Notes: a model not told the origin generated them from the sequence alone. 64,000 bases of DNA from an uncultured Eubacteriales bacterium (GCA_905203305.1 CAJKVH010000002.1:90125-154124), one strand, 5' to 3'. Positions 26,901-30,110 are shown, numbered from the stretch's first letter. Numbers and translations are program-made.

Positions 26901-27018
26901 AGCACGACACGGAACCCGATGTTGATGTTGTACCAAGTAGCGTCATTGTTACCGTTGCGGTTAGAAACGGGATTGTTAGACCCGTTGTTATTGAAGCTAC
27001 CACCACGAAGGACGGCTC
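26901..27018 (-). repeat. DGR template repeat (TR), 118 bp
   Basis: Matches 28522-28639 at 107 of 118 positions. All 11 mismatches sit at plus-strand T, which is A in the coding (minus) sense. The coding-sense TR is AAC/AAT-rich (…FNNNGSNNPVSNRNGNNDATWYNINIGFRVV). Confidence 0.9.
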
Positions 27019-27080
27019 CCACAAGCATTATGAATTACCCCAATTCATTTTCTTCATATTCAAAATATTTACTCACAAAG

Positions 27081-28061
27081 TTATATGTATTTGCATATTT
27101 TAAATATCCGGAAATGGCCACATAGGTGTTTTTTTGCTTCTTTTGAAGTTATTTCACCATTTTTTATTTTTAATTTTAATTTTTTTATATTTTTCTTTAT
27201 TCTTTTTTTTCCTTTTGTTCTTAGTTTCATTCTGTATTCATTTATTTTGTATCCACAAAAGTTAACCCCTTGTTTAGATTTAAATATATTTGTTTTAGAA
27301 TTAAAGCTTAAGTATAATTCTTCATTTATAAATTTTTCAATTTTACTTTTTATTTCTTTTAATTCTTCTTTATTTTGCATAAGTATAATGCTATCGTCCA
27401 TATATCTATAATAATATTTAACTTTCAATTTATGTTTTATATATTGATCTGCTTCGTTATAGTATACATTTGCAAATATTTGACTTGTTAAGTTTCCAAT
27501 AGGTATTCCCACTTCTTCTCTTTTTGAGTATATTATTTCTCGTAATAGCCATAATACATTTTCATCTTTTATTTTTCTTTCAATTATTTCATAAAGCTTT
27601 TCTTTATTTATACTTGCAAAATATTTTGCTATATCCATTTTTAAAATATAGTATTCGCCATATTTCTTTTTACATTTTTTCATTCCTTGCTGTACAGCTA
27701 AAGCTGCCCTATGCATTCCTTTGTTCTTTATGCAGGCATAAGATGTATCTATAAATTGTGGTACAAATGTATCTATCAAAAAACTATCTACAACCCATCT
27801 ATGTACAACTCTATCAATATAAGCCGAAGCTTCTACTTTTCTTAGCTTCGGCTCTGTTACATAAAATGATGTATAACCTCCATGTTTATATGTTTTTGTC
27901 ATAAGTCTTTCATATAGCCACATTATATATTCTTCTTGTTTAAGGTTAAATCTTACTATATTTTTCCTTGTTGTTTTTCCAGATTGGCTTTTTTTATGTG
28001 CATCCATTAGTTTATCAAATGTTAGATATTTATAATATACATTTCTAATTGTTTTTGGCAT
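27081..28061 (-). CDS. diversity-generating retroelement reverse transcriptase
   Basis: 326 aa with the RT motif YRYMDDSII (YxDD). The DGR-RT signature IPIGNLTSQIFANVY is present, and the N-terminal …FYVTEPKLRKVEASAYIDRVVHRW… resembles DGR RTs. Confidence 0.9.
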   Translation of the reverse strand: MPKTIRNVYYKYLTFDKLMDAHKKSQSGKTTRKNIVRFNLKQEEYIMWLYERLMTKTYKHGGYTSFYVTEPKLRKVEASAYIDRVVHRWVVDSFLIDTFVPQFIDTSYACIKNKGMHRAALAVQQGMKKCKKKYGEYYILKMDIAKYFASINKEKLYEIIERKIKDENVLWLLREIIYSKREEVGIPIGNLTSQIFANVYYNEADQYIKHKLKVKYYYRYMDDSIILMQNKEELKEIKSKIEKFINEELYLSFNSKTNIFKSKQGVNFCGYKINEYRMKLRTKGKKRIKKNIKKLKLKIKNGEITSKEAKKHLCGHFRIFKICKYI

Positions 28062-28425
28062 AATATTTAATTAATCCTCCTAAAATTGCACCAACCTCTC
28101 TTATTAATGTATTCATAACATAATCAAATCTTTTTGTATCAATCCACTTATTTTTCTTCATTATTCTAAGCAATGCTCTTTGAATATTTAATCCAGCATC
28201 AATTCTATTCAAATAATATATTCTTTCTTTTGTTGATACTTTTTCTATGAACATAATATTTTTAAAAGTGTCATACATGACACTTTTAAATTCTGTTCCT
28301 ATACTAAATTTTTCTGTTCTTGGCAAATGTAATAAAATTACTTCTAACATATATTCCATATAAAATTCATATTTTGGAATTAGTGTTAATTCTTTGCTTT
28401 TTTTCTCATAAGACATTATTTCCAT
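28045..28425 (-). CDS. avd: DGR accessory variability determinant (Avd)
   Basis: 126-aa basic helical protein encoded between target and RT, overlapping the RT start by 17 nt. Confidence 0.7.
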   Translation of the reverse strand: MEIMSYEKKSKELTLIPKYEFYMEYMLEVILLHLPRTEKFSIGTEFKSVMYDTFKNIMFIEKVSTKERIYYLNRIDAGLNIQRALLRIMKKNKWIDTKRFDYVMNTLIREVGAILGGLIKYYAKNN

Positions 28426-28508
28426 TTTTGTTTTTCCTAATTTATGTTTTTTCTTTCATCTCTATACCTTCAAGTTTTTCTGTTCTAGGCTTTCAGGCTA
28501 CAGTGCTA

Positions 28509-30110
28509 CTATTTGATGTAAAGCACGACACGGAACCCGATGTTGAAGCGGTACCAAGTAGCGTCAAGGCTACCGTAGCGGTCAGAAACGGGATAGTTAG
28601 ACCCGTTGTAATGGAAGCTACCACCACGAAGGACGGCTCTAAGAGTGCTTCCCCCATCTGGTTTACCTGTTTCTGTAGTCCACTCCCACATATTTCCTGC
28701 CATGTCATATATATTTTTTACCTTTGTTTCTTCTGCTGATCCTGTAGCTAATTCTTTTCTTATTGTATAGCTATAATTTGTTGTATCATAAGTGTTGTTT
28801 GTAAAATCATATTTTGCTCCACTTGTAGCATCTATACTTTCAGCTCCAGATTTAAATGCTCCTTTTTTATATTTTGTAGCATAGCTCCAATAATCGCCTT
28901 TTCCTGCTTTTTTTCCAGCTTCTGTTATACTTCCATATCTGTGTACTGCATATAGTGCATTTGATAAATTTATCTTATCATTATTATAATAATTACCTTT
29001 TAAAGAACTATCATTTCCTAAATTTTTATTTGCTTCTTCTTTTGTCATCCATTCTACAATTGTATCCCAGGCATAGCTGTCTACTAAACCACTTGTTACA
29101 GATGTACTTCCAGAATACATATTATTTGATACTTCTACTGCATTTACTTGTGATATAAAATTCCAGCTTGGAGTATTTTTCTTACTTACTGGAGTTCCAG
29201 ATTTTGTGTTTTTCTTTGATTCTCTTTCGTATGTCGCCCCATCTTTATCCTCATATAAATTAGAAGGTAAACCAGCTTCATATCTACCTATATAAAATCC
29301 ACCATATTTTTTCACACTATCTGCATTTCCACCATTATCTGACCATGTATTTTCTGCAACTGGTTCATATTTTGTAGATCCATCTGCATTTGTTCCTGAT
29401 GAATATGAATTATACCACCATGATTTTCCACTATATTTACTTTTCCATGTTGTTGCAAGACCAATTTCTTTTTCATATGTTACACCATTGCTTCCATTAC
29501 ATGGTACCCATACAAATTGATTTCCACCTTTTGAATTGCTATCATCATCTCCGAATTTATCTGATATTACAAGTCCTGTTGAAGGTGTTCCTGTAACATA
29601 ATAAAATCCTGCTGGTATTATAGCTTTACTTGGATTTTCTGTTTTTTCTTCTACTATCATTCTTACTTTTTCATCAGCTAATAAATCTTTGTCTTCTTGT
29701 TTTTCTGCATTTGCGACAGTTATCTGCTTTAATCCATTTGTTTCAACTGCTTTTTGTTCATTTGTATTACCTATAACTTCACTTACATCGTAAGTTTTGC
29801 CTTTATATTTTACTGTTCCTTGAGATACATTAGTTTCTATTCCTTCTATCTTTCCTAATTCTTCAAGAATATACTCGTTCTCAGATCCTGTTTTGCCACT
29901 TGCATAGTAATTTGTCACAGCATCATATGCTTTTAATTGCAAATATTCTAAATCAGATGCTGCCTCTGTTTGTTCTTTTGCCTTTGCTGCATTTGTCAAG
30001 ATTCCATTTTGTCCTGTAAGCATTGATATTGATATTCCTGCAAGTATTATTAATACTATTACTGTAACAACTAACGCTATTAATGTTATTCCCCCATTCT
30101 TTTTCATCAT
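28509..30110 (-). CDS. DGR target protein: type-IV-pilin-like N-terminus plus a C-terminal FGE/C-type-lectin-fold domain carrying the variable repeat
   Basis: The N-terminus MMKKNGGITLIALVVTVIVLIILAGISI resembles a prepilin class-III signal and hydrophobic helix. The C-terminus …GNMWEWTTE…LRGGSF…WYRFNIGFRVVLYIK is a canonical DGR variable-region scaffold. Confidence 0.85.
   Translation of the reverse strand: MMKKNGGITLIALVVTVIVLIILAGISISMLTGQNGILTNAAKAKEQTEAASDLEYLQLKAYDAVTNYYASGKTGSENEYILEELGKIEGIETNVSQGTVKYKGKTYDVSEVIGNTNEQKAVETNGLKQITVANAEKQEDKDLLADEKVRMIVEEKTENPSKAIIPAGFYYVTGTPSTGLVISDKFGDDDSNSKGGNQFVWVPCNGSNGVTYEKEIGLATTWKSKYSGKSWWYNSYSSGTNADGSTKYEPVAENTWSDNGGNADSVKKYGGFYIGRYEAGLPSNLYEDKDGATYERESKKNTKSGTPVSKKNTPSWNFISQVNAVEVSNNMYSGSTSVTSGLVDSYAWDTIVEWMTKEEANKNLGNDSSLKGNYYNNDKINLSNALYAVHRYGSITEAGKKAGKGDYWSYATKYKKGAFKSGAESIDATSGAKYDFTNNTYDTTNYSYTIRKELATGSAEETKVKNIYDMAGNMWEWTTETGKPDGGSTLRAVLRGGSFHYNGSNYPVSDRYGSLDATWYRFNIGFRVVLYIK
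28522..28639 (-). repeat. DGR variable repeat (VR) at the 3' end of the target gene
   Basis: See TR. VR ends 3 codons before the stop codon. A GC-rich 3' element (coding sense cgggttccgtgtcgtgct) is shared with TR. Confidence 0.9.

What the first reader, a model, noticed from the sequence alone, without database searches (positions are those of the whole stretch)
26901..30110. Complete diversity-generating retroelement with adenine-only differences between template and variable repeat
The cassette on the minus strand is target (VR at its 3' end), avd, RT, then TR. TR (26901-27018) and VR (28522-28639) are both 118 bp and differ at 11 positions. Every difference is at a TR plus-strand T, which is A in coding sense. 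The coding-sense TR is rich in AAC/AAT, and the matching VR codons read H, Y, Y, D, Y, S, L, R and F, which is the classic DGR mutagenic-homing signature. The RT has the YMDD box and the DGR-specific IGNLTSQ motif, and an Avd-sized helical protein sits between target and RT. The VR scaffold (GNMWEWT … RGGSF … GFRVV) has the C-type-lectin/FGE fold used by known DGR targets.
Basis: partly seen in the sequence, partly recalled or inferred. Interest (0 to 1): 0.8.

Follow-up and report, generated by a model that had tools for sequence, protein, structure and literature searches.

The report
Gut Clostridia DGR with SSB-like partner

Summary
TR (26901-27018) and VR (28522-28639), both on the minus strand, are 118 nt long and differ at 11 positions. 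All 11 are TR adenines (p about 2e-7). Avd, a DGR-type RT (IGNLTSQ, YMDD; nearest solved structure 8ub7) and a C-type-lectin/FGE-fold target are all present.

Nine independent human-gut assemblies of the same locus have a near-invariant TR and nine different VRs. Of 129 TR-to-VR differences, 122 lie at TR adenines, so the element has been active in nature.

- Rfam RT-14 RNA (26762-26902) starts at the last bases of TR. It has the place and size of the Bordetella phage spacer RNA that primes cDNA synthesis.
- A 104-aa tail-less SSB/PriB-like OB-fold gene (26425-26739) follows. It was present in 71 of 72 related DGR loci, although the flanking genes differ. Searching from the SSB-like side recovers DGRs or their remnants.
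- I found no paper describing this accessory gene.

The target begins with a prepilin-like N-terminus that lacks Glu5, so display on a pilus is plausible but unproven.

Verdict: an ordinary DGR at its core, a member of a large gut Clostridia lineage, with an apparently undescribed accessory gene that bears on the unsolved homing step.

The parts
28509..30110 (-). Target (variable-protein) gene, 533 aa
30012..30110 (-). Prepilin-like N-terminus of the target (residues 1-33: MMKKNGG|ITLIALVVTVIVLIILAGISISMLTG), with Ala instead of Glu at +5
   Evidence: Read directly from the sequence. Scores are below threshold: Pfam N_methyl 15.5 bits (cut-off 21.2) and GspG 16.9 bits. Fragments with the same motif carry precomputed N_methyl hits, and NCBI names one of them a prepilin-type N-terminal cleavage/methylation domain protein. 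The motif is present in 84 of 120 homologues and in 19 of 23 full-length targets of related loci, never with Glu5.
28522..28639 (-). Variable repeat (VR), encoding residues about 491-530 at the C-terminus of the target
   Evidence: 118 nt with 11 mismatches to TR, all at TR adenines. VR differs in each of 9 independent assemblies and in 14 of 14 full-length members read from a cluster of 80.
28522..28538 (-). A-free, GC-rich 3' end of VR (GGGTTCCGTGTCGTGCT), identical to the 3' end of TR; IMH-like segment
   Evidence: Exact match in both copies, found nowhere else in the window even with up to 3 mismatches. No adenine, so it is not mutagenised. Its role as the homing boundary is inferred by analogy with BPP-1.
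28045..28425 (-). avd (accessory variability determinant), 126 aa, pI 9.5
   Evidence: Pfam bAvd 55 bits (cut-off 40). NCBIfam DivGenRetAVD 63 bits, below its cut-off of 80. It overlaps the RT start by 17 nt.
27081..28061 (-). DGR reverse transcriptase, 326 aa, pI 9.8
   Evidence: Pfam RVT_1. IGNLTSQ at residue 188 and YMDD at residue 220. Best PDB sequence hit is 8ub7_A at 147 bits, against 61 bits or less for group II and retron RTs. 204 relatives were found in gut Clostridia MAGs.
26901..27018 (-). Template repeat (TR), 118 nt, 29 adenines, 11 AAY codons in the VR frame
   Evidence: TR is nearly invariant across 9 assemblies while VR varies. 26 of the 29 adenines are seen substituted in at least one natural VR.
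26762..26902 (-). Structured RNA immediately 3' of TR (Rfam RT-14, RF02921); proposed equivalent of the BPP-1 spacer (Sp) RNA
   Evidence: 92.4 bits against a gathering score of 48.1, matching the full-length model. The same family is found in 13 of 13 related loci, always starting 1-5 nt before the end of TR. 19 of 37 predicted pairs show compensatory changes.
26425..26739 (-). SSB/PriB-like OB-fold protein, 104 aa, without the C-terminal acidic tail; cassette-linked accessory gene
   Evidence: Pfam SSB 29.2 bits (cut-off 26). AF2 model has pLDDT 79, and all top 50 Foldseek PDB hits are SSB or PriB with TM about 0.7. It is present within 300-650 nt of the RT stop in 71 of 72 related loci. Reciprocal search: 42 of 50 SSB-like loci have the RT beside them, and 5 of the other 8 have a target-gene match nearby (a confirmed remnant in one).

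Best explanation
Proposed mechanism: this is a chromosomal diversity-generating retroelement of an uncultured low-GC gut Clostridia bacterium.

What is there. It appears to be one minus-strand operon: target, avd, RT, TR, RT-14 RNA and the SSB-like gene. It sits between the folate genes FTCD_C and folD.

How it most likely works.
1. A transcript spanning the RT 3' end, TR and the 141-nt RT-14 RNA is bound by the RT-Avd complex.
2. By analogy with the 140-nt spacer of Bordetella phage BPP-1, RT-14 folds back and supplies the priming nucleotide.
3. cDNA synthesis starts at the A-free 3' end of TR and copies TR faithfully, except opposite the 29 adenines, where any nucleotide can be inserted.
4. 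The roughly 120-nt antisense cDNA then replaces VR (28522-28639). It is bounded by the identical 17-nt 3' segment and the identical 26-nt 5' segment.
5. This rewrites 11 AAY codons plus ATC, TAC and ACT codons. The 11 AAY codons alone allow 15^11, about 9e12, variants on the ligand-binding face of a C-type-lectin/FGE-fold domain.

Display. The protein is exported and held at the cell surface by a prepilin-like N-terminal hydrophobic helix. It may be a Glu5-less (tip-type) subunit of a type IV filament.

The SSB-like protein. It is proposed to bind the single-stranded cDNA and to protect it or deliver it for homing.

Shown here: the anatomy, A-specific variation in natural populations, conservation of the RNA and its position, and linkage of the SSB-like gene to this DGR lineage.

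Inferred: priming by RT-14, the role of the SSB-like protein, pilus display and the ligand.
For: A-only TR/VR differences (p about 2e-7).

DGR-type RT, Avd and a CLec-fold target.

TR adenines lie only in codon positions 1 and 2.

Population evidence: the identical Avd protein is listed in 179 blocks of the collection. In the 7 places shown, all metagenome assemblies and mostly human gut, it lies in the same chromosomal site. Across 9 assemblies TR is near-invariant, all VRs differ, and 122 of 129 differences are at TR adenines. In 14 full-length members read from a cluster of 80, variation is concentrated at the AAY-, ATC- and TAC-encoded residues, with the amino-acid spectra expected from A-to-N changes.

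Related loci show the same layout and the same A bias, for example 23/23, 20/20 and 21/21 mismatches at A.

RT-14 lies at the TR boundary in the window and in 13 of 13 relatives, with covariation. In BPP-1 a 140-nt spacer in the same position primes cDNA synthesis (bioRxiv 10.1101/2023.10.23.563531). Weinberg et al. had already placed RT-10 in the BPP-1 spacer and speculated that other RT motifs serve other DGRs (PMC5737381).

SSB-like gene: OB fold, present in 71 of 72 loci, and the reciprocal search returns DGRs.

The flanks are housekeeping genes and differ between lineages, so the linkage is to the DGR and not to the neighbourhood.
Against: No within-sample read data were available. Activity is therefore inferred from differences between assemblies, not observed directly.

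No convincing GC-rich hairpin follows VR, unlike BPP-1. There is only a 5-bp GTGCT/AGCAC inverted repeat, with z -0.01 to -0.23 depending on the stretch folded.

TR and VR have identical 3' ends (no IMH/IMH* difference), so what stops TR itself from being a homing target is unexplained.

The priming nucleotide in RT-14 was not identified.

The SSB-like protein has no demonstrated ssDNA binding. It lies on the opposite strand in about 10 loci and is missing in 1 of 72.

Confidence: 0.9

Rival explanations
1. The cassette is a fossil. It is a once-active DGR that no longer diversifies VR, and the VR differences between assemblies reflect old events fixed in separate lineages.
For: Only between-sample differences were examined. 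Decay of this element family is common: there are loss alleles in which avd and RT are deleted by VR x TR recombination (L095) and RT remnants (L115, L124, L127).
Against: In the window all ORFs are intact, the RT catalytic motifs are present, and TR keeps 29 adenines. Assemblies encoding an identical Avd, with only sparse dimorphic differences elsewhere in the target, still each have a unique VR. That implies turnover much faster than background divergence.
Confidence: 0.07
2. The SSB-like gene is a passenger. It is inherited with the cassette because it sits next to it in a mobile unit, and it plays no part in mutagenic homing. It could, for example, be a PriB-like replication-restart or competence protein.
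For: No biochemical data exist. In about 10 loci it is on the opposite strand, so co-transcription is not obligatory. Most characterised DGRs work without such a gene (Wu et al., PMC5758913). It survives in loss alleles that have lost the RT (L095). In the window it lies about 5 kb from priA.
Against: It is present in 71 of 72 loci across RT identities from 58 to 83%, whereas the window's flanking genes are found beside almost none of them. The reciprocal search from the SSB-like profile lands on DGRs, or on loci with a target-gene match, in 47 of 50 loci with enough flanking DNA. ORF length and 13 invariant residues are conserved.
Confidence: 0.35
3. The target's N-terminus is only an uncleaved signal-anchor (or a Sec signal). 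The variable lectin domain is tethered to the membrane and is not part of any type IV filament.
Against: The motif [KR]G-ITLIALV followed by about 20 hydrophobic residues is the prepilin pattern in every respect except Glu5. It is strongly conserved. NCBI and Pfam label identical N-termini as the prepilin-type methylation domain. Glu5-less subunits are known as tip or minor pseudopilins such as GspK (my own knowledge). A pilus gene cluster with pilin-like proteins is reported as conserved in the TANB77 gut Clostridia (PMC11680825). Assigning this window to TANB77 is from memory and was not tested.
Confidence: 0.45
4. The element belongs to a prophage and diversifies a phage receptor-binding protein, as in BPP-1.
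For: Many gut DGRs are phage-borne (Roux et al., PMC8144416). An IS4-family transposase lies 2.5 kb away.
Against: Both flanks are housekeeping genes: U32 peptidase, FTCD_C, folD, carD, priA, def, fmt and ffh. No phage structural genes were found. The closest phage RTs are at most 41% identical. The target has an N-terminal membrane helix, which is unlike a tail fibre.
Confidence: 0.02

Closest known systems
Bordetella phage BPP-1 DGR (mtd-avd-TR-brt)
   Same: Both have adenine-specific TR-to-VR transfer, an Avd plus RT pair, a VR at the C-terminal end of a C-type-lectin-fold protein, and AAY-rich TR codons. Both have a structured non-coding RNA of about 140 nt directly 3' of TR. The RT's nearest solved relative is 8ub7_A. 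I take 8ub7 to be the bRT-Avd-RNA complex from memory; the tool names it only 'Reverse transcriptase, 328 aa'.
   Different: The gene order is avd-RT-TR (architecture B2) rather than avd-TR-RT. The element is chromosomal, not phage-borne. The RNA family is RT-14, not RT-10. There is no IMH/IMH* sequence difference and no convincing GC-rich hairpin after VR. There is an extra SSB-like gene. The target is a cell-surface protein with a prepilin-like N-terminus, not a tail-fibre tip.
Cellular DGR variable proteins TvpA (Treponema denticola, 2y3c) and TaqVP (Thermus aquaticus, 5vf4)
   Different: Sequence identity is only 14-17%. TvpA is a lipoprotein (my own knowledge), whereas this target has a prepilin-like N-terminus and a region of about 400 residues upstream. 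The Treponema DGR uses an HRDC accessory gene, not an SSB-like one.
Described DGR accessory genes: avd, HRDC, MSL, CH1 (Wu et al. 2018, PMC5758913)
   Same: The SSB-like gene is small, encodes a predicted nucleic-acid-binding protein and is restricted to one RT lineage. [quoted passage not shown]
   Different: It is an SSB/PriB-type OB fold, which is none of the four described classes. It co-occurs with avd. Whether it is one of their unnamed 'PAG1-4' candidates could not be checked, because the supplement is not held.
Bacteroides DGRs that diversify type V pilus tip adhesins (bioRxiv 10.1101/2024.11.15.621889)
   Same: Both involve gut commensals and a DGR aimed at a pilus-associated adhesive protein. 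Here that holds only if the prepilin reading is right.
   Different: The filament type differs (type IV-like signal rather than type V), as do the phylum and the DGR lineage. Pilus association is inferred here only from the N-terminus.
Modular type IV pilins of Streptococcus sanguinis (PilB, PMC8179133)
   Same: Both have a pilin-type N-terminus fused to a large functional (adhesive) module in a monoderm bacterium.
   Different: No pilin globular module was detected here, Glu5 is absent, and the functional module is hypervariable through a DGR.

Membership tests
Diversity-generating retroelement (DGR) | TR/VR repeat pair whose differences fall at TR adenines | tested here: met
   11 of 11 mismatches at A in the 118-nt core, p about 2e-7. 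122 of 129 at A across 9 assemblies.
Diversity-generating retroelement (DGR) | RT of the DGR clade ([LIV]GxxxSQ in motif 4, YxDD; closest to bRT rather than to group II or retron RTs) | tested here: met
   IGNLTSQ at residue 188 and YMDD at residue 220. 8ub7_A scores 147 bits against 61 bits or less for group II and retron RTs. In NCBIfam the RT matched only non-DGR RT models (group II intron, retron, Drt3a, AbiA), all far below their cut-offs.
Diversity-generating retroelement (DGR) | VR at the 3' end of a target ORF, on a variation-tolerant scaffold (CLec/FGE or Ig) | tested here: met
Diversity-generating retroelement (DGR) | Accessory protein Avd | tested here: met
   Pfam bAvd 55 bits against cut-off 40. 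NCBIfam DivGenRetAVD 63 bits is below its strict cut-off of 80. The protein is basic, pI 9.5.
Diversity-generating retroelement (DGR) | cis-acting RNA next to TR that primes cDNA synthesis (Sp in BPP-1) | tested here: inconclusive
   A conserved structured RNA (RT-14) lies exactly 3' of TR in the window and in 13 of 13 relatives, with covariation. Priming itself cannot be tested computationally.
Diversity-generating retroelement (DGR) | IMH/IMH* asymmetry and a hairpin downstream of VR that mark the homing target | tested here: not met
   The 3' ends of TR and VR are identical up to the end of the 118-nt repeats, after which the copies diverge. After VR there is only a weak 5-bp inverted repeat (z -0.01 and -0.23). 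Over 37 loci the mean z is -0.6. These features are described for BPP-1 and are not universal requirements, so membership is not affected.
Diversity-generating retroelement (DGR) | Ongoing mutagenic homing | tested here: inconclusive
   Indirect support only: every independent assembly and cluster member has a different VR with the A-to-N spectrum. A direct test needs reads or a culture.
Rfam RT-14 RNA (RF02921) | Covariance-model score at or above the gathering threshold over the full model | tested here: met
   92.4 bits against 48.1, model positions 1-144.
Bacterial SSB/PriB OB-fold family | SSB-type OB fold | tested here: met
   Pfam SSB 29.2 bits against cut-off 26. In the profile search against PDB, the six best of seven matches are SSB-family OB-fold chains, best E 0.0037. 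AF2 plus Foldseek: all top 50 hits are SSB or PriB, TM about 0.7.
Bacterial SSB/PriB OB-fold family | Disordered C-terminal tail ending in an acidic tip (canonical SSB) | tested here: not met
   The protein ends right after the OB domain (...VVVSDISIFKSK, 104 aa). Homologues do the same. It therefore resembles PriB or tail-less SSB paralogues, not the replicative SSB.
Bacterial SSB/PriB OB-fold family | Binding of single-stranded DNA | not testable with these tools
   Needs EMSA or similar.
Type IV pilin / pseudopilin | Class III signal: short basic leader, Gly at -1, hydrophobic alpha1-N, Glu at +5 | tested here: inconclusive
   The leader, Gly and hydrophobic helix are present. Position +5 is Ala in the window and A, S or V in relatives, never Glu. 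N_methyl scores 15.5 bits, below the cut-off of 21.2. Identical N-termini elsewhere carry N_methyl or prepilin annotation.
Type IV pilin / pseudopilin | Pilin globular domain (alpha1-C packed on a beta-sheet) | tested here: not met
Type IV pilin / pseudopilin | Prepilin peptidase and assembly machinery in the genome | tested here: inconclusive
   None was seen among the annotated genes of the window, and no other ORF in the window has the motif. The rest of the genome was not available.

The most novel reading that the evidence does not exclude
This gut-Clostridia DGR lineage may encode its own single-stranded-DNA-binding protein: a tail-less SSB/PriB-like OB fold that is a fifth, undescribed class of DGR accessory factor. 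It would capture the A-mutagenised cDNA and hand it to the chromosome for homing.

The orientation fits a replication-fork annealing route. GC skew is negative on the plus strand across most of the window and the target is on the minus strand. If the minus strand is the leading strand, the antisense cDNA is complementary to the lagging-strand template. This is inference only.

Together with RT-14 acting as the priming spacer, and a Glu5-less prepilin-type target that would place a hypervariable lectin at the tip of a type IV filament, this would be a distinct DGR subtype.
Probability: 0.3. Interest if true: 0.7.

Novelty: new variant of a known kind. Interest (0 to 1): 0.5.

Why it matters
The core finding is a textbook DGR and adds little by itself. 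Gut Firmicutes are known to be rich in DGRs.

Two points give it value.
- The step after cDNA synthesis, how the cDNA replaces VR, is described as 'poorly understood' in the field's own words (bioRxiv 10.1101/2023.10.23.563531). A lineage in which an SSB-like gene is almost inseparable from the DGR offers a direct, testable handle on that step. It could also supply a compact part for engineered DGR mutagenesis systems.
- The Rfam orphan RNA RT-14 gets a concrete, testable job as the spacer or priming RNA of this DGR lineage.

In addition, the element is widespread in human-gut metagenomes. It diversifies a surface, possibly pilus-borne, lectin-like protein in a group of uncultured gut Clostridia, and pilin-like proteins of one such clade (TANB77) have been linked to host immune effects (PMC11680825). 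The link to that clade is not established here.

Tried and rejected
1. Further VRs or remote targets in the window: searches with both conserved repeat ends, allowing up to 3 mismatches, found only TR and VR.

2. BPP-1-type GC-rich hairpin after VR: DNA folding of the window gave z about 0. RNAalifold on 18 loci gave no consensus structure. Per-locus folding of 37 loci gave mean z -0.6. Rejected as a robust feature.

3. Prophage origin: rejected on gene context and on phage RT identity of at most 41%.

4. Sequence search of the target against PDB: no hit. Only fold comparison worked.

5. Its hits were group II intron, retron and Drt3a models, all far below their cut-offs. I used the PDB comparison and motif inspection instead.

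6. Checking whether Wu et al.'s PAG1-4 candidates include the SSB-like gene: the supplement is not held.

7. Literature search for a DGR-SSB link: nothing relevant. Roux 2021 and Wu 2018 mention neither SSB nor pilin.

8. Confirming the TANB77 assignment: the record titles say only 'uncultured Clostridia' or 'Clostridium sp. CAG:567', and the TANB77 paper does not list these names. Left as unverified.

9. Two 455-aa ORFs (2978-4345 and 32300-33667) suspected to be repeats: they are unrelated, and the first is SpoIVA.

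
Full report
**1. Observation**

On the minus strand, TR (26901-27018) and VR (28522-28639) are 118-nt direct repeats 1621 nt apart. An ungapped comparison gives 11 mismatches. In every one the coding-sense TR base is A and the VR base is C, T or G. TR has 29 A in 118 nt, so the chance that all 11 fall on A is about 2e-7.

Similarity runs 3 nt further and includes one C/T difference at the very edge (26900/28521). 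After that the two copies diverge. The repeats are 50-55% G+C in a 28% G+C window. No third copy exists in the 64 kb.

In the VR reading frame, TR encodes AVLRGGSFNNNGSNNPVSNRNGNNDATWYNINIGFRVV and VR encodes AVLRGGSFHYNGSNYPVSDRYGSLDATWYRFNIGFRVV. All in-frame TR adenines are in codon positions 1 or 2 (15 and 13), none in position 3.

**2.

- The 533-aa target (28509-30110) matches Pfam FGE-sulfatase at its C-terminus.
- The 126-aa ORF (28045-28425) matches Pfam bAvd at 55 bits, cut-off 40. NCBIfam's Avd model gives 63 bits, below its strict cut-off of 80.
- The 326-aa ORF (27081-28061) is an RVT_1 reverse transcriptase with IGNLTSQ at residue 188 and YMDD at residue 220.
- Its best match among solved structures is 8ub7_A, a 328-aa reverse transcriptase, at 147 bits. 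Group II intron and retron RTs reach at most 61 bits. I take 8ub7 to be the Bordetella phage bRT complex from memory; the tool gives only the molecule name.
- avd overlaps the RT start by 17 nt.

The order target-avd-RT-TR is architecture B2 of Wu et al. 2018 (PMC5758913).

**3. Evidence of activity in nature**

The exact Avd protein is listed in 179 blocks of the public assembly collection. In the 7 places shown, most of them human-gut metagenomes, the cassette lies in the same chromosomal site: U32 peptidase, FTCD_C, then the cassette, then folD, carD. The window itself matches a JGI metagenome contig.

I compared the window with eight other independent assemblies. TR is almost invariant, all nine VRs differ, and 122 of 129 differences between each VR and its own TR are at TR adenines. 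26 of the 29 adenines are substituted in at least one VR.

At the protein level, the closest 90%-identity cluster (96% identical to the window protein) has 80 members. The 14 full-length members read all have different VRs. Variation is concentrated at the residues encoded by AAY codons (500-502, 505, 506, 510, 512, 514, 515, 521, 523). It also occurs at ATC codons, which show only I, L, F and V. At the TAC codon the variants are mostly Y and C, with one Pro that A-mutagenesis does not explain. Apart from that residue this is the A-to-N spectrum. The rest of the protein shows only sparse two-state differences.

Within-sample heterogeneity could not be examined.

**4. The lineage**

The RT has 204 relatives in the genome collection. 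All 80 fetched are metagenome-assembled genomes labelled uncultured Clostridia, Clostridium sp. (for example CAG:567, 28_12), or occasionally Bacilli or Tenericutes. They come from human, rabbit, chicken and ruminant guts. From memory these names belong to the GTDB order TANB77, but I could not verify that.

Wherever enough upstream DNA is present, the same layout and the same A bias are seen, for example 23/23, 20/20 and 21/21 mismatches at A. Many contigs end close to the cassette, within about 1 kb upstream of the RT gene, where the VR would lie. That fits assembly breaks at a heterogeneous or repeated sequence.

The closest phage RTs are at most 41% identical. The window's neighbours are housekeeping genes: priA, def, fmt, ffh, rpsP, trmD, rplS, whiA, aminoacyl-tRNA synthetases, spoIVA, uvrB and uvrC. 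The element is therefore chromosomal, not prophage-borne.

**5.

Rfam family RT-14 (RF02921) matches 26762-26902 on the minus strand at 92.4 bits (gathering score 48.1) over the full model. The match starts at the last two bases of TR. The same family is found in 13 of 13 related loci tested, each time starting 1-5 nt before the end of TR. In an alignment of these 14 sequences, 19 of 37 predicted base pairs show compensatory changes.

Weinberg et al. described RT-1 to RT-19 as motifs near RT genes. They assigned only RT-10 to a DGR, placing it in the BPP-1 TR-to-brt spacer, and speculated that others serve other DGRs (PMC5737381). In BPP-1 a 140-nt spacer immediately downstream of TR supplies the priming adenosine and pairs with the 3' end of TR (bioRxiv 10.1101/2023.10.23.563531).

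RT-14 is 141 nt in the window and has the same position relative to TR. The most economical reading is that it is the spacer or priming RNA of this lineage. That is inference; I did not identify the priming nucleotide.

**6.

A 104-aa ORF starts 23 nt after RT-14 (26425-26739, same strand).
- It passes the Pfam SSB threshold (29.2 bits against 26).
- A profile of the family finds little but SSB-family OB-fold chains in the PDB, weakly (the six best of seven matches; best E 0.0037).
- Its AlphaFold model (pLDDT 79) is an OB barrel. All top 50 Foldseek matches are bacterial SSB or PriB, with TM about 0.7.
- It ends right after the OB domain and so lacks the acidic C-terminal tip of replicative SSBs.

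With a family HMM, a homologous ORF lies 300-650 nt downstream of the RT stop in 71 of the 72 related loci that have at least 900 nt of downstream DNA. It is mostly on the same strand, is on the opposite strand in about ten loci, and is once upstream. The window's own flanking genes (folD, carD, FTCD_C, U32) are found beside almost none of these loci.

I then ran the reciprocal test, starting from the SSB-like profile in the metagenome collection. Of 50 loci with at least 1.5 kb of upstream DNA, 42 carry the DGR-type RT. Five of the remaining eight carry a match to the target gene nearby. In the one examined closely (L095) this is a DGR remnant.

The gene is therefore tied to this DGR lineage in both directions. 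Wu et al. list four accessory classes (avd, HRDC, MSL, CH1) and none is an SSB. Literature searches for DGR together with SSB found nothing relevant. I could not check whether the gene corresponds to one of Wu et al.'s unnamed PAG1-4 candidates.

A role in binding the single-stranded cDNA is a reasonable hypothesis and no more than that. The passenger-gene alternative is kept at about one in three.

**7. The target's N-terminus**

The protein starts MMKKNGG-ITLIALVVTVIVLIILAGISISMLTGQNG. This is a short basic leader, then Gly, then about 20 hydrophobic residues, which is the prepilin pattern except that position +5 is Ala rather than Glu.
- The motif is present in 84 of the 120 best homologues. 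In a 50-sequence alignment of full-length homologues its residues are at least 90% conserved.
- It is present in 19 of 23 full-length targets of related loci, with A, S or V at +5 and never Glu.
- The window's own N-terminus scores below threshold: N_methyl 15.5 bits against 21.2, GspG 16.9 bits.
- Fragments with the same motif carry precomputed N_methyl hits, and NCBI names one a prepilin-type cleavage/methylation domain protein.
- No pilin globular fold was detected.
- No pilus machinery is seen in the annotated parts of the window.
- A pilus gene cluster with pilin-like proteins is reported as conserved in TANB77 (PMC11680825).

Display on a type IV filament, possibly at the tip as for Glu5-less pseudopilins, is plausible. 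A simple membrane anchor is about equally likely.

**8. Differences from the BPP-1 paradigm**

TR and VR have identical 3' ends (GGGTTCCGTGTCGTGCT, A-free), so there is no IMH/IMH* difference. After VR there is only a 5-bp inverted repeat (GTGCT...AGCAC) spanning the stop codon, with z between -0.01 and -0.23. Over 37 loci the mean z is -0.6, and RNAalifold finds no consensus structure.

A non-coding motif, (A)AGTAGCACTGA, recurs just after the stop codon in many loci. It remains unexplained and is a candidate for the element that distinguishes VR from TR.

**9. Mechanism, with status of each step**

Shown here:
- the parts and their order;
- A-specific diversification in natural populations;
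- conservation, covariation and fixed position of RT-14;
- linkage of the SSB-like gene to this lineage.

Inferred from BPP-1 work:
- RT-Avd binds the TR-RT-14 RNA;
- RT-14 primes cDNA synthesis in cis;
- cDNA synthesis starts at the 3' end of TR with misincorporation opposite A;
- the cDNA replaces VR.

Hypothesised:
- the SSB-like protein handles the cDNA. The orientation is compatible with annealing to the lagging-strand template, given the negative GC skew across most of the plus strand and the target's position on the minus strand;
- the target is presented on a type IV filament.

The 11 AAY codons alone allow 15^11, about 9e12, protein variants.

**10. Verdict**

This is a real, complete and apparently active DGR. 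It is one member of a very large gut Clostridia lineage and is ordinary in its core. I rate it a new variant of a known kind, with interest about 0.5. Most of that interest comes from the SSB-like gene, because it bears on the unsolved homing step.

Noticed in passing
L085, L088, L089 (about 4907-5500 in each locus), same species and site as the window: In three other assemblies the unit [TR + RT-14] is tandemly duplicated (about 295 nt). The second TR copy is 87% identical and has lost many adenines (for example AAT AAC AAC has become AAT TGG ACA). The VR of those strains matches the first copy. The second copy could be a decaying or self-mutagenised TR. The window has a single unit.
   Followed up: partly
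L095 (2246-4291); also L114, L158, L159: These look like DGR-loss alleles. In L095 the target gene runs straight into a TR-type, Asn-rich repeat followed by RT-14 and the SSB-like gene. avd and RT are deleted, as expected from VR x TR recombination, and the chromosomal site is the same as in the window. L114, L158 and L159 have a target-gene match upstream of the SSB-like gene and no RT match; they were not examined further. L115, L124 and L127 retain only RT fragments.
   Followed up: partly
window 28478-28510 and the equivalent positions in related loci: A non-coding motif, (A)AGTAGCACTGA, recurs just after the target's stop codon in many related loci, although the surrounding sequence diverges. 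Its function is unknown. It may be part of what marks VR, and not TR, as the homing target.
   Followed up: partly
window 28261-28290: A perfect 14-bp inverted repeat (TTTAAAAGTGTCAT / ATGACACTTTTAAA, 2 nt apart) lies inside the avd coding sequence. The terminator scan reports the same site as a 13-bp stem with a 4-nt loop on both strands. Its significance is unknown.
   Followed up: no
window 22944-24278 (+): An IS4-family DDE transposase lies between carD/tRNA and the next gene. Another assembly of the same species (L082) lacks about 1.5 kb here, so this looks like a recent IS insertion polymorphism.
   Followed up: partly
window 30247-30298: Two direct repeats, TTGGGGACGG (minus-strand sense), lie 35 nt apart in the intergenic region upstream of the target gene (family D6). 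The first overlaps a GAACCG...CGGTTC stem followed by a run of T, which looks like the terminator of the upstream FTCD_C gene.
   Followed up: no
window 59860-60969 (+) and 61126-61833 (+): Two ORFs (369 and 235 aa) with no Pfam match lie in the only segment of the window with clearly higher G+C (39% against about 28%).
   Followed up: no
window 32300-33667 (+): A 455-aa ORF with no Pfam match is encoded on the strand opposite to its neighbours, between the U32 peptidase gene and a methyltransferase gene. It is unrelated to the equally long SpoIVA ORF at 2978-4345.
   Followed up: partly
L001-L080 (contig ends): Many MAG contigs end close to the cassette, within about 1 kb upstream of the RT gene, where the VR would lie. 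This is consistent with assembly breaks caused by VR heterogeneity or by the TR/VR repeat. Several MAGs carry two such DGR loci (for example L015 and L022, L018 and L031).
   Followed up: no
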